A DNA stretch of 64,000 bases from the NCBI GenBank assembly GCA_000092065.1, contig CP000596.1; one strand, written 5' to 3'. A program made the translations under genes and the position numbers. Shown in pieces: positions 13,142-59,857 of this stretch; within the stretch, counting starts at the first letter, position 1; each line of letters opens with the position of its first letter. This DNA comes from Ostreococcus lucimarinus. Its lineage: Eukaryota. The notes beneath the pieces are model-generated. The model made no database searches. It was not told the origin of the DNA and worked only from the letters and a program-made list of their open reading frames with translations.

Positions 13142-15697
13142 ATGGCGCGCGCGCGAGGTCGCGCGACGCGATGGACGACGATCGCGCTCGCGTGCGTCGT
13201 GAGCGCGATGTGCGTGTTCGGAGGCGCGACGAACGGTGCGTGGACGGAAAGATGAGCGAACGATGCGCGAAAGAAAGATGTCGACGAAGCTCGACGAAGA
13301 TTTCCGACCGCGCGCGCGATCGAGTCGCGACGCGCGGGCGGCGCGGCGCGAGCGAGCGCGAGATGCGTGAACGATGACTGACCGAGCGCACACGTCGACG
13401 ACGCAGTGCGCGCGGAGGAAGACGCGACGACGGACGCCGGCGCGGCGAAAATCCCAGACTTCGCCCCGGGGGCGGAAAAGTTTGAGTTCCAGGCCGAGGT
13501 CTCGCGATTGATGGACATCATCATCAACTCGCTGTACTCGAACAAGGATATTTTCTTGCGCGAATTGATCTCGAACGGCTCGGATTCTTTGGACAAGATT
13601 CGATTCATGTCGCTCACCGACAAGGAGCAATTGGGAGGCGGCGAAAACGCCGATCTCGACATTCGCATCAAGGCTGACAAGGAGCGCAAGGTGCTCACGA
13701 TTCGCGACCGAGGCATCGGGATGACGAAGGACGACTTGATGAACAACCTCGGTACGATCGCCAAGTCCGGAACGTCCGCGTTTTTGGACCAAATGGCGTC
13801 TGGCGGCGACATGTCTTTGATCGGACAGTTCGGCGTCGGTTTCTACTCCGTCTACCTCGTCGCCGACTTTGTCGAAGTGCGCTCGAAACACAACGACGAC
13901 GACAAGCAATGGGTGTGGCAATCTAAGGCTGATGGCAACTTTGCCATCTCCGAGGACGAAGGCGAACCGCTCGGCCGCGGGGTGGAGATCAACATCTACC
14001 TCAAGGAAGAAGCGCAAGAGTACCTCGAAGAGACCAAGCTTCAAGCTCTCGTCGAGCGTTACTCCGAGTTCATCAACTTCCCCATCTACCTGTACAACTC
14101 CAAGGAAGTCTCTGAAGAAGTACCCGTCGAAGCCGGCGACGAGGATGAAGAAGCTGACGTCTCCGGTGACGACGCCGAAGACGACGAGGAAGGCGACGAT
14201 GAGGAAGGCGACGAAGACGAAGAGGACGACGAACCGAAGACGAAGACCGTGACCAAGACCGTTTGGGATTGGGAACGCCTGAACGACGTCAAGGCGATCT
14301 GGCTCCGAAGCACGAACGAAGTTGAAGAGGAAGAGTACACCAAGTTCTACCAAGCTCTCGCCAAGAACTCTGAAGAGCCGCTCGCGTATTCGCACTTCAA
14401 GGCGGAGGGCGACGTCGAATTCAAGGCCATTCTCTACATCCCCGAACGACCGTCGCCGGACTACTACGACAACTACTACAGCCGCGCGAGCGCGCTCAAG
14501 TTGTACGTCCGCCGTGTCTTCATCTCTGACGAGTTCGACGAGTTGTTGCCCAAGTATTTGAGCTTCATTAAGGGCATCGTCGACTCGGACACGCTCCCCT
14601 TGAACGTGTCTCGCGAAACTCTCCAGCAACACACGAGCTTGAAGACGATCAAGAAGAAGCTCGTTCGCAAGGCGCTCGACATGATTCGCAAGCTCGCGGA
14701 AGAAGGCGGCGATGCGGAAGATGACGATGCCAAGCCCGAAGGCGAAGATGACGCGGCGACGAAGGACGAGCCGAAGTATGAAAAGTTCTGGAAGTCGTTC
14801 GGCAAGGCGATCAAGCTCGGGATCATCGAAGACGCGAGCAACCGCGTGCGCCTCGCCAAGCTTCTTCGATTCCAAACCTCGAAGTCCGACGGCAAGCTCG
14901 TCTCTTTGGAGCAGTACGTCGAACGCATGAAGGAGGGCCAAAAGTCGATTTATTACATCACCGGAGAATCCATCGACGCGCTCAAAAACTCTCCGTTCCT
15001 CGAGAAGCTCATCTCCAAGGACTTCGAAGTCATCTACTTCACCGATCCCATCGATGAGTACACCATGCAAAACTTGACTGAATTCGATGATTTCAAGTTC
15101 TCCAACGCGAGCAAGGAAGACCTCAAGTTTGGCGACGCGGACGACGACGAAAAGGCTCGCTTTAAGAAGACGAAGGAGGCGTTCAAGTCTTTCACCACGT
15201 GGTGGAAGAGCAAGCTTCCGGACACCATGATTGAAGCGGTCAAGGTCTCCAACCGCCTCTCCACCACCCCGTGCGTCGTCGTGTCGTCCAAGTACGGCTG
15301 GTCCGCAAACATGGAACGCATCATGAAGGCGCAAGCCATGGGCGACGAATCCCGTCACGAGTACATGCGCGGCAAGAAGACGCTCGAAGTGAACCCGAGA
15401 CACCCGATGATCGCGGCGCTCAAGGAACGCGCGGCTACGGATCCGGACTCCGAAGAAACGGAAACGTTGGCCAAGCTCATGTTCGAAACCGCGATGTTGG
15501 AATCTGGTTTCTCGTTCGACAAGCCTCAAGAGTACACCTCTCGCGTTTTCGACTTGTTGAAGTCGAACATGGGCATCGAAAAGGATGCCGAACTCGTCGA
15601 CGAGACCCAGTTCCACTTGCCGGAAGAAGAAGACGAGGAAGATAAAAAGGAAGAAACCAAGGAAGAAACCAAGGAAGCTCCGAAAGACGAGCTCTAA
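13142..15697 (+). CDS. HSP90B: ER-type HSP90 (GRP94/endoplasmin); two exons: 13142..13235 and 13407..15697
   Basis: Exon 1 encodes MARARGRATRWTTIALACVVSAMCVFGGATNG (signal peptide) and is followed by an in-frame stop, so an intron is required. The join is phase 1, donor GTGCGT, giving ...TNG|VRAEEDATTDAG.... Exon 2 carries the HSP90 ATPase motifs (LRELISNGSDSLDKIR, GQFGVGFYS) and a C-terminal KDEL. 794 aa. Confidence 0.85.
13236..13406 (+). other. Spliceosomal intron of the GRP94 gene (171 nt)
   Basis: Donor GTGCGT. ACTGAC branch motif at 13377-13382, 23 nt upstream of the CAG acceptor. Confidence 0.8.
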
Positions 15698-15779
15698 ACG
15701 ATTTTAATATGAGATGACACGCGAATTTTGTGTTAAAAGCGAGAACAAAACAAACTCATCGGAAGGCATCGTAAGCTTT

Positions 15780-16622
15780 TCACCGACGACCGCTTAGCGA
15801 GCCTGGAAGCGTGACGAAGCTGCGTCGACCCGGTCCCGCTCGTGTAGTCATCTGAAGTCCCGCAAATGCTGGGCCGCGAACTGGCAGCATGCGTCGGCTC
15901 GATTTCGGTTCGCGCGCGGGAGCGGGAGAAGGCGCGGGCGCCGGGGAAAGGTCTTCGTCGAGTCCCTCGTCGTCGAGACGGATCAGTTCGAAATGGATTT
16001 CCACGTCTCCTGCGCGCGCATCGCCGACGCTTTCCGCATGTTCCTCGTAGCGTTCGAGTGATTCCGTCCCCGACATGAGCACGCCACCGTTGTCTTCCAC
16101 CGTTTCGTGCAACGCGACGAAGTCGCAAAAGTATCCGGTGCGATCTCGATCGACGTCGGACGCACCACACCTTCCGAATTCTTTCCCTGGAAACGGAATC
16201 TCGTTCGAGCATTCATCAGGAAACATGAAACCGCAAATGTGCATCGTGTGCATCGTGCCCTGCTCGCCGTTCGGGACGTATAACACGAAAGACATCGACG
16301 CGAAATCGTTCTCCGCCGTCGGCCATTTGACGGCGAGAAAGCTCGCGCCTACCTCCACAGCGGCGGTATCCGCCGCATCGACGGCTTCGCGCTCGACGAA
16401 AGGTTGAATCGTGACATCAGCGGCAAGAACTGAGTCATCGATGAACATTTCAAGTTCATCCATCGCCCTGTGAACGTCTTCGGCTATTTTCTCGGGTAGC
16501 TCGCGGAAGTACTCGCTCGCGTTCACAGTAGAAGTCGCTGAAGGGTCATCCGCCGCGACGACGCGCGAACAGAGACACGCCGAGACGAAAACGAGGAAGG
16601 TTGTAAAGATTTGGTTTCTCAT
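15780..16622 (-). CDS. Secreted protein of unknown function
   Basis: 280 aa from ATG at 16622. Signal peptide MRNQIFTTFLVFVSACLCSRVVA. Several Cys residues and a Pro/Ala-rich C-terminus. No family recognised. Its 3' end overlaps the GRP94 3' region. Confidence 0.4.
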   Translation of the reverse strand: MRNQIFTTFLVFVSACLCSRVVAADDPSATSTVNASEYFRELPEKIAEDVHRAMDELEMFIDDSVLAADVTIQPFVEREAVDAADTAAVEVGASFLAVKWPTAENDFASMSFVLYVPNGEQGTMHTMHICGFMFPDECSNEIPFPGKEFGRCGASDVDRDRTGYFCDFVALHETVEDNGGVLMSGTESLERYEEHAESVGDARAGDVEIHFELIRLDDEGLDEDLSPAPAPSPAPAREPKSSRRMLPVRGPAFAGLQMTTRAGPGRRSFVTLPGSLSGRR

Positions 16623-18944: not shown

Positions 18945-19928
18945 TCACTCGTCGTCGTCGTCGTCGTCGTCGTCGTCCATGAACTCGGCAAACTCGCCGA
19001 GATCCTCCGCGGGCGCGGCGGCGGGCGCGGGCGCCTCGACGCCGAAGGCGACGGCGTCGCGCGCGTCGGCGAGCGCGCTCGGCTCGATCGCCGTCTTGGG
19101 CGCGCGCGCGCGCGCACCGGCGGTCTTTCTCGCCTCGGCCGCGCGTTCGAGCTCGATCGAGCTCGCGTCGACCGCTTTCGGCGGTCCGATGTCCCAGTTA
19201 TCGTTCAACAAATTCATCTCCGTGGGCACGTGAATACCGGGGCGATTGGAGAGTTTGGGCAACGGATGCCTGTTCACCACCGCCGCCATCGCGTGCGCGT
19301 CCGCCAAACTCGGCGGTTCGATGAACTGCCGCATTAATATCGCCTTGGCTCCTATTTTCACATCCTCCGCGTCGATCGTTCCTCGCCCCGCGTGTCTCGC
19401 CGCGCACGCGCTCTCCTCCAGCGCCTCGCTCGCGTACCGGTGCATGAACTCCATCCCTTGCGAGATGACCTTACGATCGACGTCCGTCACGCCCTGCGCG
19501 GATCGAATCAGTTCGCGCGTCGTCGTCAGTCCTTCCTTCGCGCGTTCGTCGTCCTCGCGCGTCGCGTCGGTCGCGTCGCGCGTCTCTCGCACCATCTCTC
19601 GCAGGATCTCTCGCGCCGCCGCCGCGTCTCTCGGCGCGCGTCGTTTCCCTCGTCCCTCGTCCTCGTCCTCGTTCGTCTCCAACGCTCGCGCGTCGTCGTC
19701 TTCGCGCACGCGCGCGCCCTCTCGCGCGCTTTTCTCCTCGTCCTCGTCCTCGTCGTCGTCGCCCTCGAGCGTCTCGCGCGCCTCGCGTCGCTTCTTCGCC
19801 TCCGCGGCGAGTCGAATGGCTTTCTTTTGTTCGGGCGTCAGCCCGCTGTTCACCATCGCCGCGACCGAGGGGAGTCGATCGCGTCGTTTCTTCGCCGACG
19901 CGCTCGGCGCCTTGCGCTTCGGCGCCAT
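18945..19928 (-). CDS. TAF9: Histone-fold protein, TAF9-like (TFIID subunit)
   Basis: 327 aa. Histone fold RKVISQGMEFMHRYASEALEESACAARHAGRGTIDAEDVKIGAKAI aligns with TAF9 [42 protein letters not shown]. Conserved NRHPLPKL...RPGIHVP box. Poly-Asp C-terminus, as in TAF9. Confidence 0.55.
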   Translation of the reverse strand: MAPKRKAPSASAKKRRDRLPSVAAMVNSGLTPEQKKAIRLAAEAKKRREARETLEGDDDEDEDEEKSAREGARVREDDDARALETNEDEDEGRGKRRAPRDAAAAREILREMVRETRDATDATREDDERAKEGLTTTRELIRSAQGVTDVDRKVISQGMEFMHRYASEALEESACAARHAGRGTIDAEDVKIGAKAILMRQFIEPPSLADAHAMAAVVNRHPLPKLSNRPGIHVPTEMNLLNDNWDIGPPKAVDASSIELERAAEARKTAGARARAPKTAIEPSALADARDAVAFGVEAPAPAAAPAEDLGEFAEFMDDDDDDDDDE

Positions 19929-20062
19929 CGCGTTCGGCTCGAGGCGTCGTGTGCGGACGACCGTCGACGCGAATCCGCGTCCGTTCCATTCGTGTTTGAT
20001 TTGATGCGCGGCGATGCGTTCGCGATCGCGTCGTCAGACGTCGGACGTCGGACGCGCGCGCG

Positions 20063-20579
20063 ATGGCGCGCGAGGGTAAAGCGCGCGCGTCGCACGTCCT
20101 CGTCAAGCACGCGGATTCGCGACGACCGGCGAGCTGGCGCGATCCCGAGGGCGCGCACATCGCGAAAAAGGCGCGCGGCGCGCGCATCGCGAACGCATGA
20201 AAAATGAGTCGCGCGACGACGGACGGACGGATGGACGGACGGACGGACCGCGACGCGGCGTCGCGCGCGAAGACGATTCGCGTTAAACGCGATGACTGAC
20301 GAATCCGCGACGACGACGACGACGCAGACGAAAGAGGCGGCGATCGACGAGCTGCTGCGCTATCGCGACGCGGTGGCGAACGGCGAGGCGACGTTCGCGG
20401 ACGTCGCGAAAAAGGTGAGCGATTGCAGCAGCGCGAAGCGGGGAGGAGATTTAGGGGAATTTGGACCGGGACAGATGCAAAGGGCGTTCGAGGACGCGAC
20501 GTACGCGCTGAAGATTGGCGAGATGAGCGAGGCGGTGGAGACGGATTCGGGCGTGCACGTCATCTTGCGCACGGGGTGA
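20063..20579 (+). CDS. PIN1: Pin1-type parvulin peptidyl-prolyl isomerase (no WW domain, plant Pin1At-like); exons 20063..20170 and 20328..20579
   Basis: Exon 1 encodes MAREGKARASHVLVKHADSRRPASWRDPEGAHIAKK. Exon 2 encodes TKEAAIDELL...SDCSSAKRGGDLGEFGPGQMQRAFEDATYALKIGEMS...DSGVHVILRTG. The 120-aa product aligns end to end with Arabidopsis Pin1At (119 aa). No GT donor exists between the conserved HVLVKH codons and the in-frame stop at 20198, so the model needs a GC-AG intron. Confidence 0.6.
20171..20327 (+). other. Putative GC-AG intron of the Pin1 gene (157 nt)
   Basis: 5' end is GCGCGC (non-canonical). ACTGAC at 20296-20301 lies 25 nt upstream of the CAG acceptor at 20325-20327. Confidence 0.5.
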
Positions 20580-23557: not shown

Positions 23558-24542
23558 TTATTTAAGCAACTCTTGACCGAAGAGGACGACGAATTTGCCA
23601 AAGCGTCCGACGACGTCGATGGTCCCGCCGACGGTGGGCAACTCCAAGCGAACCGGGGTTTCCTTCGAGGCCGTGCCTTCGAAGAAAGAACCCTCGCTCG
23701 TGCGCGGAGGCAAACCAGGGCCGAACGCCGGGTGTTCGAGCAACGCCGCCAAAAGCTGCGTCCCTCGCAGCGCGTTGGTGAGAGGCATGTGTCCCGGCGC
23801 GGCGTCCGCTCGCCATTGAAATTCTTGCGGAAACTTGCGATAGTCTCCATTTTCCCCAGTCGTCCAGTCAATCTTCTTGAAGAACTTCGCCCACTGCTTC
23901 TTTTGAGAGATCCAAATCTTTCTTTGCACGCTGAATCCAAATCTGTTGTTACTGTAAAACTTCCACAACTCGTCGATTGTTCGCAAATCCGTCGCCGGCA
24001 TGTTATCCACCTCGGTGAAGTACACCCACTCGCGATCCTCCGCATCTTCGCCCGCCAGCACGCACATCAACCGGCGGTGCTCGTCGTCCGCCTTTTCCCA
24101 CTCACCGGCTTCGAGCAAGGCCTTGAACGGGGCGTAGTCAACCCCCATCTGTCGTCGAAGCGTTTCGTCTTCGTCAGTCTCGCGCGAGTGGATAGGGTCT
24201 CTCTCTCGCGCGCGCGATCTCCGCGCTTCCCGCGCGCGTTTTCGCGCGTCGCGCGACTTTACGACCGCGCGCGGTCGTGCGAAGCACCACCGCGTCGTCG
24301 CGCGCGTCGTCGCGCGCGCGCGTCGCTTCACGCGCGCGTCGAGCGCGTCGCGAACGACGCACCTCGGAATCGAGCGCCGGTGGCGCCGGACCTTCGGAGG
24401 CTTCTCCGGACGACGTCGCGCTGGATTCGCCCGTGCCGACCGCGCGGAGGGGGTGGGCGACTCTGGATCTATGCGTTTTCGCGACGCGCGCGACGGGGGC
24501 GTGCGCGACGCATCGACCGTTCGCGACGGCGGAGGCCAACAT
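23558..24542 (-). CDS. GUN4: GUN4 tetrapyrrole-binding Mg-chelatase regulator; exons 24363..24542 (transit peptide) and 23558..24148
   Basis: Exon 1 encodes MLASAVANGRCVAHAPVARVAK...PPALDSE (chloroplast-transit-like) and ends at a GTGCGT donor. ACTGAC then CAG sit immediately before ATGGGGGTTGAC, the start of exon 2. Exon 2 is the GUN4 core (VDYAPFKALLEAGEWEKADDEHRRLM, LWKFYSNNRFGFSVQRKIW). 256 aa, against 265 aa in Arabidopsis. Confidence 0.75.
24149..24362 (-). other. Intron of the GUN4 gene (214 nt)
   Basis: Donor GTGCGT. ACTGAC about 22 nt upstream of the CAG acceptor that directly abuts the internal ATG. Confidence 0.7.
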
Positions 24543-29969: not shown

Positions 29970-29976
29970 AGTGAGA

Positions 29977-35766: not shown

Positions 35767-37307
35767 TCATATCGCGAAAAACTTACCTCGCCCACCTCGC
35801 CCATCGGCGCCGTGCTTGATGAACGTGCCGTTTGAGTTAGACGGCGCTCGCGGCGAAGACTTCAAAAATGACCCGGCGCGTCTCGTCTTGTTCGTCGCCG
35901 CCGACCCGCTCGCCGCCATCTTTTGTCGCTTGCGCTCCACGCGCGCGTCGACGTCGTTTAAAATATTCGCCAAAACGTCGTCTTCGACGCCATCGTCGTC
36001 GTCGTCGCTCACCAAGTTGATTTCGTCGCGGTTTGACGTACGCTTCGGCGGCGGCGGCGCCAACTTTTTCATCAATTCGTCGTCGCCTCGACGCAACGAC
36101 TTCTTCACGACGCGCTTCTTGTCCGCGACGCGTTGCGTTGGCGGATACGCGAACTCGCTCGGATCATCCACTCCCCACGCGTGCCTGCTATTGGCGCGAC
36201 CGCCGAGCTGGAAATCGCCCGTCGACGTCGGCGGCGCGGGCGCCGCCGGCTTTGGTTTCGCCGCCGTTTGCGTCTTCGCGACGTCGCGAAACGCGTCCAA
36301 TTTCGCCTCCAGCGCCTTGACGTCTTTTTCCTTTTCGCGAACTTTGCGCGCGAGCGCGTCGTATTGCTCTTGCTGCGACGCGATTTGTTTATTCTTCGCG
36401 CACAAGTTTCGCACGAGCGTCGTCATCGCCAAGCGCGGATCGCTCCCCTCCAGCCTCTTCAACATCTCCCTCTCTCCGAGCGACGACGCGCTCGCCGCGA
36501 CTTCTCTCTCGATGCGCTCCTTGTCTTCGAACTTTGACAAACTCCGCGTCAACTCGTCGTTCTTCTCTCGCAACGTCTTCATCTCCCTGGCGTCCCGGCG
36601 AACCTTTGACGCGAGCGTGTCTTGCGCCAACCGAATCGCGCTCAACTCATTCTTCGCCTTTTCCAACGCCCGTCGCGCGTCATCGCTCTCCGTCGCGCGT
36701 CGCCCGATCGCATCCTTTTCCCGCTTTAACGTCTCTATCGCGTCCAGCGCCTCCCGCATCCGCTCTCGCTCTCGCCTCAGCTCTCGCGCGCACTCGGCGT
36801 ACCGCTCGTCCGCGCCTCGCGCGCCGTCCTCCCCCCCCCTCGACCGCCGCCTGCCCGGCGTCGGTTGACTCCGCCCCCCGTGCGCGTCGTCAACGCCGTC
36901 ATCCATCGTTTTATGATCCAGGTATATCGTCACGCAATCGTCGTACGCGAATTCGCGTTTACACGTCGGACACGTCGCCTCGCCGCAATCGTCGCGTCGT
37001 CCTCGTCCTCCCCTTTCCTCCCTCGCCCGTCGCCGCGTCTCCACGTCGTGCCACTTCGAGATGCATCGCACGTGATACACGTGTCCGCATCCTCGCAGCG
37101 CCTGTCGCGCGACGCCCGTCGCCCGCGTCGCTCGTCGTCAGTCGTTCGTTCGCGTCGCATCCGTCAAACGTTCGTTTCAAATCGCGCCTTCGTCTGTTCG
37201 TCATCGGCGTCGTTCGTCGCGTCGCGTCGCGTCGTTCGGTTCGTCGCGCGCGCACGCACCACACACTTCCCCGCGCACGTCTCCAGGCACACCGCGCACC
37301 GCGACAT
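35767..37307 (-). CDS. RING-H2 finger plus long coiled-coil protein; exons 37260..37307 and 35767..37101
   Basis: Exon 1 encodes MSRCAVCLETCAGKCV (C1-x2-C2). It joins phase 0 at a GTGCGT donor to ALRGCGHVYHVRCISKWHD...CPTC (C3-H-H-C...C-x2-C). The join restores a complete RING-H2, which the track ORF otherwise truncates. This is followed by about 300 aa of heptad-rich coiled coil. 460 aa. Confidence 0.65.
37102..37259 (-). other. Intron of the RING-H2 gene (158 nt)
   Basis: Donor GTGCGT. gACTGAC about 35 nt upstream of the CAG acceptor. Confidence 0.65.
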
Positions 37308-42787: not shown

Positions 42788-42934
42788 TCCCGCGGCGACC
42801 CCACCGGCGCCGATCGCGCCACCGCGAACGTGTAAATCAAAACAAGCGTTTCAACGCCATCTCACGCGCTTCGCGTTCGTCCACCATCCGTCCCGCGTCG
42901 TCGTCTTCGCTCGCCGCACTCCCCGCCGCGTCCC

Positions 42935-43411
42935 ATGTCCGCCTTCGTCCCCGTTCCCGGCTGCGCCACGCGCTTCCGCGTCCTCAACCAGGCGCCGCCG
43001 TCCGCCCCCGTCGTCGAGCGCGGCGACGTCGTCGTCGTCCACGCCAAGGGCGTCGTCAAGGAGACGCAAAAGACGTTCTGGTCCACCAAGGACCCGGGAC
43101 AGAAACCGTTCGAGTACACCGCCGGCGTCGGCGGCGTCATCACCGGTGCGTCGCGCGCGTCGTCGTCGCTCGAGAACCGAGCGCTCGCGCGCCCGCGACG
43201 CGCGACGCCGCGCGACTGACGATGAACGATCGCGAATCGAATCGCCGCAGGCTGGGACCGCGGCTGCCTCGGCGCGCGCGTCGGCGAGACGCGCGAGCTC
43301 GACATTCCCGCGAGCGAGGGCTACGGCGCCGGAGGATTCCCGGCGTGGGGGATCCCGCCGAACGGCGCGCTCGTGTTCGAGATCGAGGTGCTCAGCGTGC
43401 GCGGAAAGTAG
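42935..43411 (+). CDS. FKBP12: FKBP12-type peptidyl-prolyl isomerase; exons 42935..43145 and 43251..43411
   Basis: Exon 1 encodes ...GDVVVVHAKGVVKETQKTFWSTKDPGQKPFEYTAGVGGVITG. Phase-1 GTGCGT donor. Exon 2 encodes WDRGCLGARVGETRELDIPASEGYGAGGFPAWGIPPNGALVFEIEVLSVRGK. The product aligns with the full FKBP12 domain, 123 aa. It is hidden inside the spurious N-terminal extension of the DDX11 track ORF. Confidence 0.8.
43146..43250 (+). other. Intron of the FKBP12 gene (105 nt)
   Basis: Donor GTGCGT. ACTGAC at 43215-43220, about 28 nt before the CAG acceptor at 43248-43250. Confidence 0.8.
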
Positions 43412-43536
43412 AGCGACGAGCGACGAGTAATCCGACGACGCGCCGAATGAATCAAACCGAACGAACGTCACCGCGCGACGCGCGCGATGCGGTGAGGCGC
43501 GGCGCGAGCCCGAACGAACGCGCGCGCACGCCGACG

Positions 43537-46209
43537 ATGCGCCGGGACGCGTTCCCGGCGTTCCCGTACGCGACGGCGTACGGAATACAAAAAGATCTCA
43601 TGCGACACATCTACGACGCGTGCGAGCGACGCGCGACGTTCGGCGCGTTCGAGAGCCCGACGGGCACGGGGAAGACGCTGAGCGTGTTGATCGCGGCGAT
43701 GTCGTGGATCGACGATCGACGACGGGCGCGGCTGGCGGGGACGAAGTTGGACGACGAGGACGACGGGCGGGACGGCGCGGGGGAGACGACGAAGAGCGCG
43801 GAGGACGACGAACCGGATTGGTTGCGAGAGTACGACGCGAAGCGAAGGAAAACAGACGCGGATGAGGTCGAACGAAGACGAGGGGAGATACGGCGGGAGA
43901 TGCGAGCGAGGGCGAAGACGGCGGAGACGCGCGCGCGGTTGCGGCGAGACGCGGAGACGCGGTTGAGAGAAAAGATTCGCGGCGGCGACGCGAGGGACTC
44001 CGCGGTGAAGAACGATGAGATCGATAAGCATACCGCGGAAGAGCGCGAGTTTTTAGCGGATGAGTACGACTCTGGGGCGGAAAATGCGAAGGAGGATTTG
44101 CGAACGTTGCTGCGAGACGGCGACGACGAGAGCGACGACGACGACGCGCACGCGGCGAAGGAGGAAGACGATGCGTTGCGTCCGGCACAGCAGGTAATTT
44201 TGTGCTCGCGGACGCACTCTCAGCTCACACAAGTGATTGGTGAGCTTAAGAGGACGGTATTCGGTGGGAGCGTGGCGAATGCGGAGGAACAAGTCGCCGT
44301 CGCCGCCGTCGCCGGTCGAGCGCAACTGTGCGTCAACCCGGCGGTGAAAAGCTTAGGCTCGGCGGCGCGAATCAACGAGCGTTGCTTGGACATGAGCAAA
44401 GGCAAGGCGAAGCCAGGGGAGAAGACGAAAATCAAGGCGTGTCCGTACTTGTCTAAGCGTCGAAAGGCGATGCTCGAGCTTAAAGAAGCGGCGTTGGCCA
44501 AGCCGATGGACATTGAAGATTTAGCCAAGCTCGGCGAGTCGAGTCGGGCGTGTCCGTATTACGCCGCTCGCTCGGCGTTACCGGAAGCGGACTTGGTGTT
44601 GATGCCCTACGCATCTTTGTTGCACGCGGACACGCGCGAGATTTTAGGCGTCAAGTTGGAGAATGCGGTGGTGGTTTTCGACGAGGCGCACAACTTGGTG
44701 GACGCCGTGCACAATTCATACGGCGCCGCGGTGACGCTCAACCAATTAAGCGACGTTAACGACATGCTCACCGAGTACGTCGAGCGATTCAAGACTCGTT
44801 TGAGCGCGAATAACTTGCGTTATCTGCGTACGTTGACCAACATAACGCGCGCGTTCGTGAAAGTCCTCGCGAAAGAGACGGAAGACGAGAGCAAACCTCA
44901 AAAACGATTGACGACGTTGAATGATTTCTTGTTTGAGTGCGGACAAGACACTGTGAATATGTTTAGCTTGCGAAGATACTTGAAGGAGAGTAAGGTAGCG
45001 CATAAGATCGCGTCGTATGGCGAGCGTGTGCGCTCGGGGGAGAACATGAGCGTCGACGGCGTCAAGATGGAAACCATCGGACGTACGAAAGTCGCCGTCG
45101 CGCCGGATCCAAATGCTGCCCCGCGCGTGGGCGCGGTGCACGCGTTGACGTCACTCATCGATGCGTTAGCGAGCGCGGATAGTGATGGTCGAATGATTTA
45201 CGAACGCGCCACGCCTGAAGGTGATCCCGCAACGCTTCGTTTTGTCCTGCTTGACGCCGCCAGCCGGTTCAAGCGCGTCGTCGAACAAGCGCGTTCGGTG
45301 ATTCTCGTCGGCGGAACGCTCGCGCCGATTCCCGAGCTCGTCGCCCAGCTCTTCCCAGATTTACAGTCGCAAACGGCTCCAGCACCGGGTGCTCGACAGC
45401 TCAAGACGTTCACGTGTGGGCACATCATACCCCGCGACAACTTGTTACCCATCGCCCTCTCCGCGGGTCCCACTGGCGTGGCGTTGGATTTCACGCACGG
45501 CGCTCGCGCTGACGTTTCCGTTATTGATGAACTCGGGAGAATCCTTCTCAACGCGTGCAGAGTCTCTCCTGGCGGAGCGTGTGTCTTCTTTCCGTCGTTC
45601 AAATACGCCGACGAAGTGTACGCGAGATGGGAGTCCACGGGCGCCATGGCGTCCATTCGCGGCGTCAAGGACGTGTATCGCGAACCGCGCGACGCGAGCA
45701 CTCTGGAGCAATGCTTGAGAGATTACGCGGCGTCAGTGAGCCGAGGCGCGAGTACGCGAAACGGCGGCGCGGTGTTGTTATGCGTCGTCGGAGGTAAGTT
45801 GAGCGAAGGCATCAACTTCAAGGATGAACTCGGTCGACTCGTCGTCATGGTCGGCTTGCCCTACGCCAACGTCGCCGACGCCGAGCTCAAGGCGCGCATG
45901 GACCATCTCGATACCGGTCCTGGGAACCAAGGACGCGGTCGCGCGTATTACGAAGCGTTGTGCATGCGAGGCGTCAATCAAAGCATCGGGCGCGCGATTC
46001 GTCACGTCGGCGATTACGCGTGCATTTTGCTCTGCGACAAGCGATGGGGCGCGTTTGGGAGCGCGACGAACGGCTCGCGCACCAAGGCGGCCAAAGCACT
46101 TCCAGAATGGATAGAACAACGACTTGTGGTGCCGCAGCGTAATTACGGTGAAGCGCACGGTCGCGTGGCACAATTCTTTCGCGCGCGCGAGGCGAAACAA
46201 GGACACTAG
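43537..46209 (+). CDS. DDX11: DDX11/ChlR1 (Chl1) Fe-S DNA helicase of the XPD/Rad3 superfamily
   Basis: 890 aa from ATG at 43537. N-terminal FPAFPYATAYGIQKDLM...ESPTGTGKTLS. DEAH box VVFDEAHNLVDAV. C-terminal helicase motifs LLCVVGGKLSEGINF and YYEALCMRGVNQSIGRAIRH. Confidence 0.85.
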   Translation: MRRDAFPAFPYATAYGIQKDLMRHIYDACERRATFGAFESPTGTGKTLSVLIAAMSWIDDRRRARLAGTKLDDEDDGRDGAGETTKSAEDDEPDWLREYDAKRRKTDADEVERRRGEIRREMRARAKTAETRARLRRDAETRLREKIRGGDARDSAVKNDEIDKHTAEEREFLADEYDSGAENAKEDLRTLLRDGDDESDDDDAHAAKEEDDALRPAQQVILCSRTHSQLTQVIGELKRTVFGGSVANAEEQVAVAAVAGRAQLCVNPAVKSLGSAARINERCLDMSKGKAKPGEKTKIKACPYLSKRRKAMLELKEAALAKPMDIEDLAKLGESSRACPYYAARSALPEADLVLMPYASLLHADTREILGVKLENAVVVFDEAHNLVDAVHNSYGAAVTLNQLSDVNDMLTEYVERFKTRLSANNLRYLRTLTNITRAFVKVLAKETEDESKPQKRLTTLNDFLFECGQDTVNMFSLRRYLKESKVAHKIASYGERVRSGENMSVDGVKMETIGRTKVAVAPDPNAAPRVGAVHALTSLIDALASADSDGRMIYERATPEGDPATLRFVLLDAASRFKRVVEQARSVILVGGTLAPIPELVAQLFPDLQSQTAPAPGARQLKTFTCGHIIPRDNLLPIALSAGPTGVALDFTHGARADVSVIDELGRILLNACRVSPGGACVFFPSFKYADEVYARWESTGAMASIRGVKDVYREPRDASTLEQCLRDYAASVSRGASTRNGGAVLLCVVGGKLSEGINFKDELGRLVVMVGLPYANVADAELKARMDHLDTGPGNQGRGRAYYEALCMRGVNQSIGRAIRHVGDYACILLCDKRWGAFGSATNGSRTKAAKALPEWIEQRLVVPQRNYGEAHGRVAQFFRAREAKQGH

Positions 46210-46282
46210 CGTTCGGGGCGCGGCGCTCCGTAGCATTTTTTAGGAATGATGATAGATTAGTGCGTATGCTTCGCGGTGCGTC

Positions 46283-47266
46283 TTATTCGTCGCTGTCGTC
46301 GTCGTCGTCGTTCGCGTCGCTCGTCCACAGCGTGAGATTGTCGCGCAAAAGCTGCATGATCAAGGTGGAATCCTTGTAAGATTCGTCCGTCAGCGTGTCC
46401 AAATCGGCGATGGCTTCCTCGAACGCCGTCTTGGCGAGTTCGCACGCCTTGGTCGAATCGTTGCCGATTTCGTAATGGAACACCGAGTGGTTGAGCGCCA
46501 AACCGAGTCGCACGGGGTGCGTCGGCGGTAATCCATCGGTCGAACCCTTCCCGTTCGCCATCGTCGTCGCCTCCGCGTACGCCTCGTCCGCGTTTTTACT
46601 CGCCTCTTCGCGTTCATCACCGCTCGAAACCTCGGCGAGGTAGCGATAGTAATCCGCCTTCATCTTCAGGTAAAACACCACGCTCTCCCCATCCCCCGAC
46701 GCCTTGCTCAACAATCGCCCGTCGAGCACCTCCAACACGTCGGCGCAAATATCCTTCAACTCCTTCTCCACGCGCGTTCGATACCCCCTCACCTTTTCCG
46801 CCTGCGCCTCGTGTCCCTTCCCTCGCTCCTTCTCCTCGATCGAGTTCAAGATTCTCCACGACCCGCGTCGCGCGCCGATCACGTTCTTGTACCCCACGCT
46901 CAGCATGTTTCGCTCATCCGTCGTGAGCGCGTCGACGCCCTCGAGCGCGCACAGCGCCCGCATCGCCTTCACTTGTTCTGCGTCCGCGTCGCGCGCCGCG
47001 TCGCGTCGATCCGTCAGTCGCCTCGTCCCGACGCGTCATCGCGCCCGCGCCGTTCGCACGCGTCGATCGCGTCGCGCGCGCGACGCGTCGATCCGCGACG
47101 CGCCGCGCGCGCCCGCGCGCGCCTCGACGCGATCGATCCTTCGTTCGTCCGTCGCGCCGTCGATCGCGCCGTCGATCGCGTCGGACGTCGACGCACCGTC
47201 GTGTCGCTCCGCCTGCTCGGCGAGTTTCGCCTCGAACACGCATCGCTGGCGCGCGTCGAGCGACAT
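46283..47266 (-). CDS. 14-3-3 protein; exons 47197..47266 and 46283..46977
   Basis: Exon 1 encodes [23 protein letters not shown], ending at a phase-1 GTGCGT donor. Exon 2 encodes (E)[13 protein letters not shown]...[23 protein letters not shown]...[19 protein letters not shown]. 254 aa with an acidic C-terminus. Confidence 0.9.
46978..47196 (-). other. Intron of the 14-3-3 gene (219 nt)
   Basis: Donor GTGCGT. gACTGAC about 35 nt upstream of the CAG acceptor. Confidence 0.85.
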
Positions 47267-55624: not shown

Positions 55625-55669
55625 TGTGATATTGCAAGAAAGAATATGCTAGAGATGGAAAGGAAAGAC

Positions 55670-57100: not shown

Positions 57101-57246
57101 CGCGCGCGCGCAGGTGCGCGACGCGCGACGCGCGGCGCGCGAGGGCGACGAGGACGCGGCGCGCGCATCGAGGGTGAAAAAAAAACGCTCGAGGAGACGA
57201 AAAAACGGCACACGACGACGCGCGAGCGACGCGCGAGCGACGCGCG

Positions 57247-58906
57247 ATGACGCGCGATGACGCCGACGGGGGCGCGCGGGATGATTTATACGACGCGCTC
57301 GGCGTCGCGCGGGACGCGACGAAGACGGAGGTGCGCGCGAGACGACGCGAGGACGACGCGACGAGGACGATGGATGCGTTTCGATGACGACCGCGTGGAT
57401 AGGGGAGGGGCGACGACGACGACTGACGGCGAGGCGCGACGACGGCGCGACGACGGCGCGGCGTAGGTGCGACGGGCGTATCGAAATTTGATCACGCGCG
57501 CGCATCCCGATAAGGGCGGAGACGCGGTGACGTTCGCGAGGATCCAACGCGCGTACGACGTGCTGAGCGACGACGCGAAGCGCGCGTCGTACGACGAGAC
57601 TGGGACGTTTGAAAAGACGGTCGAAGAAGAATTGCTCGATGAATTCGGTGGAGGGGTGTTTCGCGATAAGATGAAGGAGGAGGAAGCGCGCAAGGAGTCT
57701 CTGGCCGAGGCGCTCGTGAAGACGGAGAAGGAGAAGGGGTCGCACACCGCCGGATTCGAAGCGTGGCTCCGAGCGCGCGGACCGGATTCGAACAAGACGA
57801 TCGGGGTCGAAGACATGATCGATCGATTCGGGGTGAACAAAGGTTCGTACGACGAAGTGGTGCTACCGAAGATTCGTGCGTACCAGGCGAGCGTCACAGC
57901 GGCGAACGCGATTAAATTGGGATCGGCGGCGATTCCTCCCACGCTCGAGTGGGGCGAGGTGCTCGTCAACGTGCGCGTCGCGCCGATTAATCCCGCCGAT
58001 ATCGACGCCAAGACGCTCGCTTCGCGCGCGAAATTCCCTTTCGTCGCTGGATCCGATGGTGTCGCCACCGTGGTGAAAGTCGGCGCGGGCGTGAAATCTC
58101 TCAACGAAGGCGATTGGGTGCTGCCGTACAAAGCCGAGATGGGCACGTGGCGCTCGCTCGCGGTGTGGAAGGAGAAGGACCTAATCAAGCTTCCTTCGGA
58201 CATTTTACCCATGGAATACGCGGCGATGATGCGTGAAATGTGCGTCGCGTACCGTTTACTGGAAGACTTCGGAAGCTTGAAACCGGGAGACGCCGTGGTG
58301 CTCAACGCCGCGACGTCCACCGTCGGTCAGTGCGTCGTGCAACTGTGCGCCATGCTCAAGCTTCGCGCCGTCGCCGTCGTGCGCTCGCGGAAAGATTTCG
58401 ACAAGACGGCGGCGTGGTTGAAATCACTCGGCGCTTCGGAGGTGTTGAAAGATGAAGGCTCGATCGCGACCGAGCTCACGTCGCGAAACTTGTTCGCCAA
58501 GCCGAGACTGGCGCTCGACGCCGTCGGCGGCGCCTCGGCGGTGCGTCTCGCCGAATCCCTCCAACCCGGTTGTCCGCTCATCGTCTACGGCAACATGAGC
58601 GGTCGCGCGGCGACGTTCCCATGGCACGCCTGGACGCAATCCGCACTCATCGTTCGCGGGTTCTCGTTGCGCCAATGGATGACTGAAAACAAGAAAAAGG
58701 TGCCCAAGATGATGGAGACGCTCGGCAAGCTCGCGCGCGCCGACAAACTCGCGATTCAGTACACCGACTACGAACTCTCGAGCGAGTTCGAGGAGGCGCT
58801 CGAACACGCGCGCGAGGACGATCGATGCACCAAAGTACTGTTACGCGTGAACGATATCGGGACGACGTACGACAGCGCCGAAAACGCCGCCTCGCCGACG
58901 GCGTGA
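57247..58906 (+). CDS. J-domain fused to a mitochondrial-type trans-2-enoyl-CoA reductase (MECR/ETR1, MDR superfamily); exons 57247..57330 and 57467..58906
   Basis: Exon 1 encodes MTRDDADGGARDDLYDALGVARDATKTE. Phase-0 GTGCGC donor. Exon 2 continues the J-domain (VRRAYRNLITRAHPDKGGD...YDETG), has an acidic linker of about 75 aa, then a MECR-like enoyl reductase (VNVRVAPINPADID, GDWVLPYKAEMGTWRSLAV, LNAATSTVGQCVVQLCAMLKLRAVAVVRSR). 507 aa. Confidence 0.75.
57331..57466 (+). other. Intron in the J-domain region of the DnaJ-MECR gene (136 nt)
   Basis: Donor GTGCGC. ACTGAC at 57422-57427, 39 nt upstream of the TAG acceptor. Confidence 0.7.
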
Positions 58907-59131
58907 GCGGTCCCGCGACGGGCGTCTCGACTCGGGCGACGGCGACCGCGCGGGCGAGACGAGACGAGACTATTCAGGGACGAAGACTACACGAATAAAT
59001 GCACGAAACTGTAATGATAATATTTCATCCTCAGTTCCTAAACTGCGGCGACCTATCGCGTCGCCTCTTCAAAGCGCGTACGTACCGAGCGTCGACGCTC
59101 GATGGCGTCGTCCTCGCTTCGCGGCGCGCGT

Positions 59132-59857
59132 TTAGTAGAGTTCTTCCTCCATGTGCGTCTTGACCGTGCAGTCCGACGTCGGGTACGCGACGCACGTGAG
59201 CACGAAGCCGTTACCCATTTGGTCGTCGTCCAAGAAAGATTGGTCGGATTGGTCGATGGAACCAGCCTGCGCGCGATCGTCTCGTCAGTCTCGTCATCCA
59301 GAAACGTCCCATCGTCGGTTCGCGACTCGTCGAGAGTCCCTCGCGGGCGAGTGACGTCAACGTACCGTGACCTTACCCGCGCACGACGAGCATGCGCCCG
59401 CGCGGCACGAGTACGGCAAGTCGATGCCGGCTTCCTGCGCGCGTCGCAAAAGAAATCACCCCTCCGTCAGTCTCGCGCCCTCGCGACGCCCGCGCGTTCG
59501 CGCGCGACGCGCCCGACGCGCATCGCGTCGATCGCCCGATCGTTGGGCGGCGCCGCGTCAGCGTCGCGCGACGCGATTCGCCCCCGTTCCCGCGCGCGCG
59601 ACGCCGCGCGCGACGCCGCGCGCGTCGCGACCCGACGATTAAAAATTCGCTCGAGCGTTTCGCGCACTCACCTCAGCGGCGTCGAGGATGTACGTGTCGT
59701 CCGCGCACTCGATCGCTTGCGCCCCCTCCGGGGTTTCGAGCGTGACCTGGAAGCGCGCGATCGTCGATCGGCGCGCGACGGCGGCGGAGGATCGGCGCGC
59801 GCCCGCGAAGGACGCGACGGGGGCGGCGGTGACGGACATCTTCGTGACGGCGGACAT
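59132..59857 (-). CDS. PETF: Plant-type [2Fe-2S] ferredoxin with transit peptide; three exons: 59672..59857, 59366..59434 and 59132..59266
   Basis: Exon 1 encodes [62 protein letters not shown], donor GTGAGT. Exon 2 encodes [23 protein letters not shown], donor GTACGT. Exon 3 encodes [44 protein letters not shown], then a stop. 129 aa. All four Fe-S cysteines are present. Confidence 0.85.
59267..59365 (-). other. Ferredoxin intron 2 (99 nt)
   Basis: GTACGT donor. gACTGAC about 17 nt upstream of the CAG acceptor. Confidence 0.8.
59435..59671 (-). other. Ferredoxin intron 1 (237 nt)
   Basis: GTGAGT donor. agACTGAC 34 nt upstream of the CAG acceptor. Confidence 0.8.

What the first reader, a model, noticed from the sequence alone, without database searches (positions are those of the whole stretch)
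13236..59671. Highly constrained intron grammar (GTGCGT ... gACTGAC ... CAG) recurring across the window
Nine introns were resolved independently from protein homology: GRP94, Pin1, GUN4, RING-H2, FKBP12, 14-3-3, DnaJ-MECR and two in ferredoxin. Five use exactly GTGCGT as donor; the others use GTGAGT, GTACGT, GTGCGC and one apparent GCGCGC. All nine carry ACTGAC (usually gACTGAC) 17-40 nt upstream of a (C/T)AG acceptor, and lengths fall between 99 and 237 nt. Such yeast-like rigidity of the branch site is unusual for a green-lineage nuclear genome. It is strong enough to use as a gene-finding rule, and is how the hidden ferredoxin and the transit-peptide exons were found.
Basis: seen in the sequence. 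Interest (0 to 1): 0.6.

Follow-up and report, generated by a model that had tools for sequence, protein, structure and literature searches.

The report
Rigid Ostreococcus intron splice signals
The window comes from the tiny marine green alga Ostreococcus lucimarinus, and its few short introns do carry almost invariant splice signals (GTGCGT ... GACTGACG ... CAG), but this was already described genome-wide in 2008.

Summary
All nine introns exist at the stated places, with the stated donors, lengths of 99-237 nt, and GACTGAC 18-40 nt upstream of a YAG acceptor. I found a tenth intron of the same type, in TAF9. Six of the ten are missing from public transcript assemblies. Two more (TAF9, Pin1) keep their signals in related Ostreococcus lineages while the intron interior diverges. 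The last two (RING-H2, DnaJ-MECR) rest only on protein domains that read straight across the junction.

Ten of the window's 15 ACTGAC copies lie in 1,595 nt of intron, which is 1.25% of the sequence on both strands (binomial P about 3e-16). I found no intron lacking the motif.

The odd GCGCGC donor of Pin1 is a real, strain-conserved GC-AG donor.

The source is Ostreococcus lucimarinus CCE9901. Irimia and Roy (PLoS Genet 2008) reported exactly this grammar for EST-confirmed introns outside chromosome 2: 87% ACTGAC, 66.5% GACTGACG, 5' consensus GTGCGTG. A 2022 preprint describes GYGCGY donors across Mamiellales, with an unchanged U1 snRNA.

The feature is real and works as a gene-finding rule, but it is already known. 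The by-products are corrections to the 2007 annotation: Pin1 exon 1, the GUN4 transit-peptide exon, and a ferredoxin gene.

The parts
13236..13406 (+). Intron A, GRP94/ER-HSP90. 171 nt, phase 1. Donor ACG|GTGCGTG, branch TGACTGACC (ACTGAC at 13377-13382), 25 nt after the branch A, acceptor GCAG|TGC.
   Evidence: JGI metatranscriptome contig L010 encodes the uninterrupted 794-aa protein and aligns to the window with this gap. The exact spliced protein is NCBI XP_001421809.1.
19494..19592 (-). 99 nt, phase 0, in frame and free of stops in this strain. Donor ATG|GTGCGAG at 19592, branch GGACTGACG (ACTGAC at 19530-19525), 32 nt after the branch A, acceptor GCAG|GGC.
   Evidence: Pfam TFIID-31kDa covers 2-120 of 122 at 90 bits when spliced, against 75 bits read through and 71 bits with the alternative 216-nt removal. 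The orthologous intron is 101 nt in an 88%-identity lineage, which would shift the frame. In 76% and 73% lineages it is roughly 130-165 nt and contains stops. All have GTGCGC, ACTGAC and CAG at the same position. No spliced transcript was found.
20171..20327 (+). Intron C, Pin1-type parvulin. 157 nt, phase 0, GC-AG. Donor AAG|GCGCGCG, branch TGACTGACG (ACTGAC at 20295-20300), 28 nt after the branch A, acceptor GCAG|ACG.
   Evidence: No GT is available before the in-frame TGA. Pfam Rotamase covers 1-95 of 97 in one stretch across the junction. Seven related contigs keep GCGCG[C/T], GACTGACG and CAG with 100%-identical exon anchors, while the intron is 156-172 nt with similarity down to 0.44. 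A 73-77% lineage has GTGCGA and TACTGAC at the same site, and other relatives have no intron there. The junction search in JGI contigs found nothing.
24149..24362 (-). Intron D, GUN4. 214 nt, phase 0, between the transit-peptide exon and the GUN4 domain exon. Donor GAG|GTGCGTC at 24362, branch AGACTGACG (ACTGAC at 24178-24173), 25 nt after the branch A, acceptor ACAG|ATG.
   Evidence: Three Logan contigs (L007-L009) encode the 256-aa spliced protein and align with exactly this gap. The ortholog in the 76% lineage (L026) has a same-position intron GTGCGC...TGACTGACT...CAG.
37102..37259 (-). Intron E, RING-H2 protein. 158 nt, phase 0, after codon 16. Donor GTG|GTGCGTG at 37259, branch CGACTGACG (ACTGAC at 37142-37137), 36 nt after the branch A, acceptor ACAG|GCG.
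   Evidence: Splicing joins the CxxC pair of exon 1 to the CxHxxHxxC...CxxC of exon 2. Pfam zf-RING_2 matches residues 3-35 in one stretch (26.6 bits, just under the 27.3 cut-off). The exon-2 reading frame has no ATG for 77 codons. No transcript was found, so this is the weakest of the ten together with H.
43146..43250 (+). Intron F, FKBP12. 105 nt, phase 1. Donor CCG|GTGCGTC, branch CGACTGACG (ACTGAC at 43215-43220), 31 nt after the branch A, acceptor GCAG|GCT.
   Evidence: Four Logan RNA contigs (L091-L094) align to the window with exactly this gap. The spliced protein is NCBI XP_001421821.1. FKBP_C covers 5-94 of 94.
46978..47196 (-). Intron G, 14-3-3. 219 nt, phase 1, after codon 23. Donor ACG|GTGCGTC at 47196, branch CGACTGACG (ACTGAC at 47018-47013), 36 nt after the branch A, acceptor GCAG|AAC.
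   Evidence: Logan contig L095 reads ...GGCGGAGCGACACGACG|AACAAGTGAAGG, which is exon 1 joined to exon 2. The spliced protein is NCBI XP_001421953.1. Intron length varies between strains (218/219/220 nt).
57331..57466 (+). Intron H, DnaJ-MECR fusion protein. 136 nt, phase 0, inside the J domain. Donor GAG|GTGCGCG, branch CGACTGACG (ACTGAC at 57422-57427), 40 nt after the branch A, acceptor GTAG|GTG.
   Evidence: Pfam DnaJ covers 1-63 of 63 in one stretch over residues 13-71. The sequence is colinear with the Pleodorina and Volvox DnaJ-enoyl-reductase fusions. Other strains read AAQ|VRRAY, so their acceptor is CAG. No transcript was found.
59435..59671 (-). Intron I, plant-type ferredoxin, first intron. 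237 nt, phase 0. Donor GAG|GTGAGTG at 59671, branch AGACTGACG (ACTGAC at 59471-59466), 32 nt after the branch A, acceptor GCAG|GAA.
   Evidence: ENA metatranscriptome contigs L005 and L006 (586 and 530 nt) encode the 129-aa protein and align as three blocks that skip this segment. Fer2 covers 6-77 of 77.
59267..59365 (-). Intron J, ferredoxin, second intron. 99 nt, phase 0. Donor ACG|GTACGTT at 59365, branch AGACTGACG (ACTGAC at 59289-59284), 18 nt after the branch A, acceptor GCAG|GCT.
   Evidence: The same contigs, L005 and L006, skip this segment.

Best explanation
These are ordinary U2-type spliceosomal introns of Ostreococcus lucimarinus, of the class found on all its normal chromosomes. 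This alga has very few introns (about 10 in about 41 genes here), and its splicing information is concentrated in two near-invariant core motifs.

The 5' splice site is G|GYGCGY. The branch site is GACTGACG, placed 18-40 nt before a YAG acceptor. There is no polypyrimidine tract.

Inferred mechanism, from general spliceosome knowledge: U1 and U6 read the donor. SF1/BBP and then the U2 snRNA GUAGUA box pair with ACUGAC, with a G.U wobble at the R position and the second A bulged as the branch nucleophile. The first YAG downstream is used as the acceptor.

What is shown: removal from transcripts for six introns, and conservation of the three motifs against a diverging interior. What is inferred: that the bulged A is the actual branch point, and why the motifs are so rigid. 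Published work attributes the rigidity to the convergent strengthening of core signals seen in intron-poor eukaryotes, not to a compensating change in U1 snRNA.
For: Organism: the exact spliced FKBP12, 14-3-3 and GRP94 proteins are NCBI O. lucimarinus CCE9901 entries on a 428,333-nt record.

Splicing: transcript contigs lack introns A, D, F, G, I and J.

Reading frame: single-stretch Pfam hits cross the junctions of Pin1, RING, FKBP12, 14-3-3, DnaJ, ferredoxin and TAF9.

Constraint: orthologous TAF9, Pin1 and GUN4 introns in lineages of 88%, 76% and 73% identity keep GYGCG, ACTGAC and CAG, while their length and interior sequence change.

Statistics: 10 of 15 ACTGAC copies lie in 1.25% of the sequence (P = 2.6e-16). 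The composite pattern occurs 10 times against 1.55 expected.

Literature: Irimia and Roy 2008 report 87.2% ACTGAC, 66.5% GACTGACG and a GTGCGTG consensus for EST-confirmed non-chromosome-2 introns. A 2022 preprint reports GYGCGY donors in Mamiellales with a standard U1 pairing region.
Against: No spliced transcript was recovered for TAF9, Pin1, RING-H2 or DnaJ-MECR. The exact Pin1 junction was absent from the JGI contigs.

The TAF9 intron is in frame and free of stops in this strain, so some retention cannot be excluded.

My search for introns lacking ACTGAC was indirect (coding potential, missing start codons, Pfam completeness). It would miss introns in untranslated regions and in very small genes.

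Branch-point usage was not measured. The G that precedes ACTGAC would not pair with a standard U2 GUAGUA box, so part of the extended motif has no explanation here.
Confidence: 0.95

Rival explanations
1. Ascertainment artefact. The reader used ACTGAC to locate introns, so 'all nine carry it' is circular and the true intron set is much less uniform.
For: The finding itself says the rule was used to find the ferredoxin and the transit-peptide exons. Neither hexamer is enriched in the window as a whole. The published figure is 87%, not 100%.
Against: Intron positions are supported without reference to the motif: transcripts for six, cross-lineage comparison for two, domain continuity for two. 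Motif-blind searches found no further intron. A frame-and-coding-potential scan produced no candidate with any CTRAY branch other than the ACTGAC ones. The test for genes with no start codon near the onset of coding potential flagged the known intron genes; of the further hits, I examined the three strongest and all resolved to ordinary signal-peptide starts. No Pfam domain is split. Only 5 ACTGAC copies remain outside introns.
Confidence: 0.04
2. The introns are copies of a mobile 'introner' element, as in Micromonas pusilla, and the shared motifs are inherited from a common element.
For: Local alignment scores between some intron interiors (G-I 54, D-I 47) exceed those of mononucleotide shuffles (mean 11, maximum 28).
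Against: With dinucleotide-preserving shuffles the scores are unremarkable (z = 1.7, 1.5, 0.0, 0.0). The multiple alignment shows only CpG-rich low complexity. Orthologous introns occupy the same positions in lineages as far as 73-76% identity, so they are old rather than recent insertions.
Confidence: 0.02
3. The signals are rigid because the snRNAs have co-evolved with them. On this view a modified U1 (or U2) pairs perfectly with GUGCGU (or GACUGACG), so the grammar reflects a changed machine rather than stronger selection on the core motifs.
For: C at position +4 mismatches the standard U1 5' end. The G before ACUGAC mismatches the standard U2 box (general knowledge of the snRNA pairing registers). 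Such a U1 change has been described for Entamoeba and Mastigamoeba.
Against: The same preprint searched five Mamiellales genomes, and each single strong U1 candidate had the standard pairing region. Irimia and Roy found no sign of a second machinery, although chromosome 2 introns use very different signals (discussion). No snRNA gene lies in this window, so I could not test this directly.
Confidence: 0.07
4. One or more of the four introns without transcript support (TAF9, Pin1, RING-H2, DnaJ-MECR) is not spliced as modelled, for example through retention or different boundaries.
For: No spliced form was found among the cluster members listed or in the JGI contigs. The TAF9 segment is translatable. 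One strain has a translatable Pin1 intron (P0325).
Against: Domain scores are best for the spliced models. TAF9 and Pin1 introns have indels that are not multiples of three and stops in other lineages. The exon-2 frames of RING and DnaJ lack a start codon where their coding potential begins. The DnaJ junction is colinear with the Volvox and Pleodorina proteins.
Confidence: 0.1

Closest known systems
Non-chromosome-2 intron class of Ostreococcus lucimarinus (Irimia and Roy, PLoS Genet 2008, PMC2483917)
   Same: Same organism. Same branch motif (ACTGAC, extended GACTGACG). Same atypical donor consensus GTGCGTG. Same low intron density. The paper's 87% ACTGAC and 66.5% GACTGACG compare with 10/10 and 9/10 here.
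   Different: Nothing of substance. This window adds individual cases, including a conserved GC-AG donor and an in-frame intron without stops, plus cross-lineage conservation within the genus.
GYGCGY donor preference of Mamiellales (bioRxiv 10.1101/2022.06.08.495308)
   Same: The ten donors here are GTGCGT x5, GTGCGC, GCGCGC, GTGCGA, GTGAGT and GTACGT. Seven fit GYGCGY exactly, including the GC donor.
   Different: Three donors depart at one position (A at +6, A at +4, A at +3). The preprint's point is that the U1 snRNA is unchanged, which I could not test.
Hemiascomycete yeast introns (GTATGT ... TACTAAC ... YAG)
   Same: An intron-poor genome, a near-invariant branch hexamer at a constrained distance from the 3' splice site, introns biased towards the 5' end of genes, and a weak or absent polypyrimidine tract.
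   Different: The branch motif has G rather than A at the R position and is flanked by G...G rather than T. The donor is GTGCGT rather than GTATGT. The similarity is a published case of convergence, not shared ancestry.
Introner elements of Micromonas pusilla CCMP1545
   Same: A related picoalga (Mamiellales) with introns that look alike.
   Different: Introners share sequence along their whole length and are recent insertions. These introns share only the three signals, and their positions are conserved between Ostreococcus lineages.
Chromosome 2 introns of Ostreococcus
   Same: Same genome, and apparently the same spliceosome.
   Different: Those introns are 40-65 nt, numerous, and have weak signals (GTRNGT, about 5% sharing any one hexamer). 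The introns here are 99-237 nt, sparse, and have strong signals.

Membership tests
U2-type spliceosomal introns | Segment absent from mature transcripts | tested here: met
   Met for A, D, F, G, I and J: contigs L010, L007-9, L091-94, L095 and L005-6 align to the window with exactly these gaps. No transcripts were found for B', C, E or H.
U2-type spliceosomal introns | GT (or GC) at the 5' end and AG at the 3' end | tested here: met
   Nine GT-AG and one GC-AG.
U2-type spliceosomal introns | CTRAY-type branch sequence 10-50 nt upstream of the acceptor | tested here: met
   ACTGAC in 10/10, with 18-40 nt after the branch A.
U2-type spliceosomal introns | Removal restores a continuous reading frame and conserved domain | tested here: met
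   Single-stretch Pfam matches cross the junctions. GUN4 is the exception: its domain starts at the junction, and it is covered by transcripts instead.
U2-type spliceosomal introns | Lariat formed at the bulged A of the branch motif | not testable with these tools
   Needs lariat sequencing or primer extension.
O. lucimarinus non-chromosome-2 intron class (Irimia and Roy 2008) | Source organism is O. lucimarinus | tested here: met
   Exact matches to XP_001421821.1, XP_001421953.1 and XP_001421809.1 of strain CCE9901.
O. lucimarinus non-chromosome-2 intron class (Irimia and Roy 2008) | Lies outside the low-GC, intron-dense part of chromosome 2 | tested here: met
   The record is 428,333 nt. 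Window GC is 0.59-0.68. There are about 10 introns in about 41 genes, and the introns are 99-237 nt rather than 40-65 nt. The chromosome number itself was not determined.
O. lucimarinus non-chromosome-2 intron class (Irimia and Roy 2008) | ACTGAC / GACTGACG branch motif | tested here: met
   10/10 and 9/10, against the published 87.2% and 66.5%.
O. lucimarinus non-chromosome-2 intron class (Irimia and Roy 2008) | 5' splice-site consensus GTGCGTG | tested here: met
   The consensus of the ten is G|GTGCGT(g). Five are exactly GTGCGT and eight have GYGCG.
GC-AG intron subclass (Pin1 intron only) | C at +2 with the rest of the donor close to the species consensus, conserved in relatives | tested here: met
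   GCGCGC or GCGCGT in eight O. lucimarinus-group sequences. A more distant lineage has GTGCGA at the same site.
GC-AG intron subclass (Pin1 intron only) | Exact junction seen in RNA | tested here: inconclusive
   The 30-nt junction gave no match in the JGI contigs, and no spliced protein appears in the collection. This may simply reflect low expression.
Introner elements | Introns share sequence along their whole length | tested here: not met
   Interior similarity is no better than dinucleotide shuffles (z <= 1.7).
Yeast-type branch site | TACTAAC heptamer | tested here: not met
   The motif is GACTGAC in 10/10. It resembles the yeast case in rigidity only.
U12-type (minor) introns | RTATCCTT donor and TCCTTAAC branch close to the 3' end | tested here: not met
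   None of the ten donors or branch regions matches.

The most novel reading that the evidence does not exclude
The grammar itself is published. What may be new is what it exposes in the 2007 reference annotation of O. lucimarinus CCE9901.
- The spliced form of a plant-type ferredoxin gene (59000-59889, minus strand) is absent from the NCBI and UniRef entries in the collection.
- The Pin1 model (XP_001421810.1, 95 aa) starts at an ATG inside the intron and so lacks the N-terminal part of the PPIase domain. The real gene uses a strain-conserved GC-AG intron.
- The GUN4 model is partial and lacks its transit-peptide exon.
- TAF9 has an unnoticed 99-nt intron that is in frame in this strain. If retained, it would insert 33 residues into the histone fold.

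Systematic re-annotation with this rule might recover a meaningful number of short 5' exons and small genes.
Probability: 0.5. Interest if true: 0.15.

Novelty: already known. Interest (0 to 1): 0.12.

Why it matters
It matters mainly for annotation. In Ostreococcus and its relatives, G|GYGCGY...GACTGACG...YAG is specific enough to locate short first exons, transit-peptide exons and small genes that homology-based or prokaryote-style gene callers miss. This window holds three such cases. Marine metagenome pipelines call these genomes as if they had no introns.

The feature is also a clean example of a published phenomenon: intron-poor eukaryotes converge on strong core splice signals. It opens no new question beyond those already raised, namely why C at +4 and the flanking G's are tolerated or preferred by an apparently standard U1 and U2.

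Tried and rejected
1. My first TAF9 model removed 216 nt from the GTGCGC at 19709. It deletes the first helix of the histone fold (APRDAAAAREILREM) and scores lower in Pfam (71 against 90 bits). I replaced it with the 99-nt model.

2. The ACTGAC at 47795 (+) looks like an intron end (TTTTGTTTCAG|ATG). It lies in continuously coding ferric-reductase sequence, so I rejected it.

3. The ACTGAC at 24680 (+) is intergenic, with no plus-strand gene to serve. Those at 58331, 55445 and 45737 (-) are antisense to genes and lack a donor or an acceptor. I treated all four as chance.

4. A chimeric query made of six junction peptides was swamped by 14-3-3 homologues and returned no spliced forms.

5. The exact Pin1 junction search in the JGI contigs returned nothing.

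6. The exact look-up of the 14-3-3 protein in the contig index returned nothing. L095 was found through another cluster member.

7. A GT/GC...AG scan based on coding potential was too noisy with GC donors and missed short first exons. I supplemented it with the missing-start-codon test.

8. The three strongest extra hits from that test (genes at 6814+, 15951-, and Torsin 38290-) turned out to have ordinary signal-peptide starts. The weaker extra hits were not examined individually.

9. The Rfam scan found no snRNA or any other RNA family in the window.

10. A literature search on the bare hexamers returned only primer sequences.

12. The apparent similarity between intron interiors disappeared with dinucleotide-preserving shuffles.

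Full report
**Source and setting**

The window is GC-rich (0.59-0.68) and densely packed with genes. A codon-usage map gives about 41 genes.

Exact look-ups identify the organism. The spliced FKBP12, 14-3-3 and GRP94 proteins I built from the window are identical to XP_001421821.1, XP_001421953.1 and XP_001421809.1 of Ostreococcus lucimarinus CCE9901, on a 428,333-nt record. The same DNA, at 98.6-99.8% identity, is common in marine metagenome assemblies, where prokaryote-style gene callers ignore the introns.

**Checking the observation**

ACTGAC occurs only 15 times on both strands, against 20.0 +/- 4.3 in dinucleotide shuffles. GTGCGT occurs 63 times against 69.5. Neither word is enriched on its own.

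Ten of the 15 ACTGAC sites, however, have a YAG 20-42 nt downstream of the start of the motif and a GTGCG-type donor 60-200 nt upstream.

| Intron | Gene | Coordinates | Strand | Length | Donor |
|---|---|---|---|---|---|
| A | GRP94 | 13236-13406 | + | 171 | GTGCGT |
| C | Pin1 | 20171-20327 | + | 157 | GCGCGC |
| D | GUN4 | 24362-24149 | - | 214 | GTGCGT |
| E | RING-H2 | 37259-37102 | - | 158 | GTGCGT |
| F | FKBP12 | 43146-43250 | + | 105 | GTGCGT |
| G | 14-3-3 | 47196-46978 | - | 219 | GTGCGT |
| H | DnaJ-MECR | 57331-57466 | + | 136 | GTGCGC |
| I | ferredoxin | 59671-59435 | - | 237 | GTGAGT |
| J | ferredoxin | 59365-59267 | - | 99 | GTACGT |

Further regularities:
- All ten introns have GACTGAC and nine have GACTGACG.
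- The last exon base is G in all ten.
- The branch A is followed by 18-40 nt.
- The stretch between branch and acceptor is not pyrimidine-rich (Y fraction 0.33-0.46).

**A tenth intron**

I first tried a 216-nt intron from the GTGCGC at 19709. That model removes the sequence APRDAAAAREILREM, which corresponds to the first helix of the TAF9 histone fold.

The better model is a 99-nt intron, 19592..19494, with donor ATG|GTGCGAG. With it, Pfam TFIID-31kDa matches 2-120 of 122 at 90 bits. Read-through gives 75 bits and the 216-nt model 71 bits. This intron is in frame and has no stop in this strain, which is why every metagenome gene call reads through it.

**Independent evidence that the segments are spliced**

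Transcript assemblies lack six of the ten.
- Ferredoxin: two ENA metatranscriptome contigs of 586 and 530 nt carry the 129-aa reading frame and align to the window in three blocks that skip introns I and J.
- GUN4: three Logan contigs skip intron D.
- GRP94: a JGI metatranscriptome contig carries the uninterrupted 794-aa frame.
- FKBP12: four Logan contigs of 2-6 kb skip intron F exactly.
- 14-3-3: one Logan contig reads ...GAGCGACACGACG|AACAAGTGAAGG, exon 1 joined to exon 2, behind a leftover Nextera adapter.

For the other four I found no spliced transcript or protein. All four give single-stretch Pfam matches across the junction: Rotamase 1-95/97, zf-RING_2 2-35/44 (26.6 bits, just under its cut-off), DnaJ 1-63/63, and TFIID-31kDa 2-120/122. 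The DnaJ junction is also colinear with the DnaJ-enoyl-reductase fusion proteins of Pleodorina and Volvox.

**Comparative evidence**

A search with the Pin1 protein returned Ostreococcus contigs at about 98%, 97%, 92%, 88%, 76% and 73% identity to the window.

*Pin1.* In the O. lucimarinus group the flanking exon anchors are 100% identical. The intron ranges from 156 to 172 nt, with similarity as low as 0.44. Even so, GCGCG[C/T], GACTGACG and CAG are kept in every copy.

The 76% lineage has an intron at the same codon, with GTGCGA and TACTGAC. Other relatives have no intron there.

No GT is available before the in-frame stop.

*TAF9.* The intron is 101 nt in the 88% lineage, which would shift the frame if translated. 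In the 76% and 73% lineages it is roughly 130-165 nt and contains stops. In all of them it follows ...IL(R/K/H)(E/S)M and has GTGCGC, ACTGAC and CAG.

*GUN4 and 14-3-3.* The GUN4 ortholog in the 76% lineage has a same-position intron, GTGCGC...TGACTGACT...CAG. The 14-3-3 intron varies by one nucleotide in length between strains.

**Is it more than chance, and is it biased by how it was found?**

Ten of 15 ACTGAC copies lie in 1,595 nt of sense-strand intron, 1.25% of both strands. That gives a binomial P of 2.6e-16. The composite GTGCG[TC]-N40-220-ACTGAC-N8-40-YAG occurs 10 times, against 1.55 +/- 1.25 (maximum 7) in 300 Markov simulations.

- A scan for GT/GC...AG pairs joining two stretches of coding potential gave no candidate with any CTRAY branch other than the ACTGAC ones.
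- A test for genes whose coding potential begins well upstream of their first ATG flagged GRP94, RING, 14-3-3 and DnaJ. Of the seven other genes it flagged, I examined the three strongest, and all begin with ordinary signal peptides. The other four were marginal or explained by antisense overlap.
- No Pfam domain is truncated at an ORF edge in the ten least certain ORFs.

These tests are indirect. They would miss introns in untranslated regions.

The five ACTGAC copies outside introns are one in coding ferric-reductase sequence, one intergenic, and three antisense to genes.

**Rival: mobile introns**

Interior similarity between some introns exceeded mononucleotide shuffles. It did not exceed dinucleotide-preserving shuffles (z <= 1.7), and the alignment shows only CpG-rich low complexity. 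Together with the conserved positions across lineages, this rules out an introner family.

**Comparison with what is known**

Irimia and Roy (PLoS Genet 2008, PMC2483917) have a section titled 'The peculiar case of Ostreococcus'. For 319 EST-confirmed O. lucimarinus introns outside chromosome 2, they report:
- 87.2% contain ACTGAC and 66.5% contain GACTGACG;
- the 5' splice site is strong (4.8 bits), with the atypical consensus GTGCGTG;
- chromosome 2 introns, by contrast, have weak signals.

They interpret this as one more case of convergent strengthening of core signals in intron-poor eukaryotes.

A 2022 preprint (10.1101/2022.06.08.495308) describes the Mamiellales donor as GYGCGY, which covers the GC donor seen here. 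It reports that the U1 snRNA candidates of five Mamiellales genomes have the standard pairing region.

The finding is therefore a correct rediscovery from raw sequence of a published genome-wide property.

**Mechanism**

*Shown.* The segments are removed from RNA, and the three motifs are under constraint.

*Inferred from general spliceosome knowledge.* ACUGAC pairs with the U2 GUAGUA box, with a G.U wobble and the second A bulged as the branch nucleophile. SF1/BBP binds the motif first, and the first YAG 18-40 nt downstream is the acceptor. With no polypyrimidine tract, recognition probably depends on the branch site rather than on U2AF65.

*Not explained here.* The preference for C at +4 and for the G's flanking ACTGAC, which would not pair with standard U1 and U2 boxes. 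No snRNA gene lies in the window.

**By-products**

- The NCBI Pin1 model (XP_001421810.1, 95 aa) starts at the ATG of ATGACTGAC inside the intron. It lacks exon 1, which encodes HVLVKHADSRRPASWRDPEG.
- The NCBI GUN4 model is a 146-aa partial. The 256-aa spliced form exists only in Logan transcript assemblies.
- The spliced ferredoxin is held only by ENA metatranscriptome contigs.

**Verdict**

The feature is already known, so interest is low apart from its practical value for annotating Mamiellales genomes and metagenome bins.

Noticed in passing
It is 99 nt, in frame and free of stops in this strain, so every prokaryote-style gene call reads through it. If retained, it would insert 33 residues after the first helix of the histone fold. 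It is 101 nt in an 88%-identity lineage.
   Followed up: yes
20062-20576 (+), Pin1: The NCBI model XP_001421810.1 (95 aa) begins at the ATG of ATGACTGAC, inside the intron and overlapping the branch site. It lacks exon 1 and therefore the N-terminal part of the PPIase domain.
   Followed up: yes
59000-59889 (-), ferredoxin; 23567-24540 (-), GUN4: The spliced 129-aa ferredoxin is held only by ENA metatranscriptome contigs, with no NCBI or UniRef entry in its cluster. The NCBI GUN4 entry XP_001421945.1 is a 146-aa partial, while transcripts give 256 aa with a transit-peptide exon.
   Followed up: partly
whole window, both strands: Outside introns, ACTGAC is depleted: 5 copies against about 20 expected from dinucleotide shuffles. 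A likely cause is coding constraint. The word contains TGA in one frame, and in the other frames it needs ACT or A-ending codons, which are rare at GC3 of about 0.8. This depletion is part of why the motif marks introns so specifically.
   Followed up: partly
the ten introns, branch site to acceptor: There is no polypyrimidine tract (pyrimidine fraction 0.33-0.46 between the branch motif and the YAG). The last exon base is G in all ten. All ten introns lie in the 5' part of the coding sequence, after codons 16-111.
   Followed up: partly
57464-57466 (+), acceptor of the DnaJ-MECR intron: The acceptor is TAG in this strain. Proteins called on other strains read ...GAAQ|VRRAY, so their acceptor is CAG. 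The acceptor pyrimidine is polymorphic.
   Followed up: partly
L021-L029, L026, L031, L018, L030 versus window 20171-20327: The Pin1 intron is present or absent across lineages. The O. lucimarinus group has a GC donor, a 76% lineage has a GT donor at the same codon, and a 73% lineage and more distant green algae have no intron there.
   Followed up: partly
39623-39716: The start codons of Torsin (minus strand, ATG at 39624) and of the 1054-aa Utp21 ORF (plus strand, ATG at 39623) overlap. The conserved Utp21 N-terminus (MALFAPYRALG) begins at a second Met about 90 nt downstream. The real genes are probably head to head across a gap of about 90 nt.
   Followed up: no
L091-L093 (window 41205-46411 and beyond): Logan RNA assemblies of 4-6 kb run through Utp21, FKBP12 (spliced), the DEAD_2 helicase and into the antisense of 14-3-3. 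This suggests overlapping or read-through transcription in this compact genome.
   Followed up: no
57247-58906 (+): A J domain fused to a trans-2-enoyl reductase (MECR-like) domain. The same architecture occurs in Volvox and Pleodorina proteins (P0085, P0150).
   Followed up: no
L095, bases 1-19: The Logan contig begins with the Nextera transposase adapter AGATGTGTATAAGAGACAG. This also creates an artificial start for the 237-aa protein P0007.
   Followed up: no
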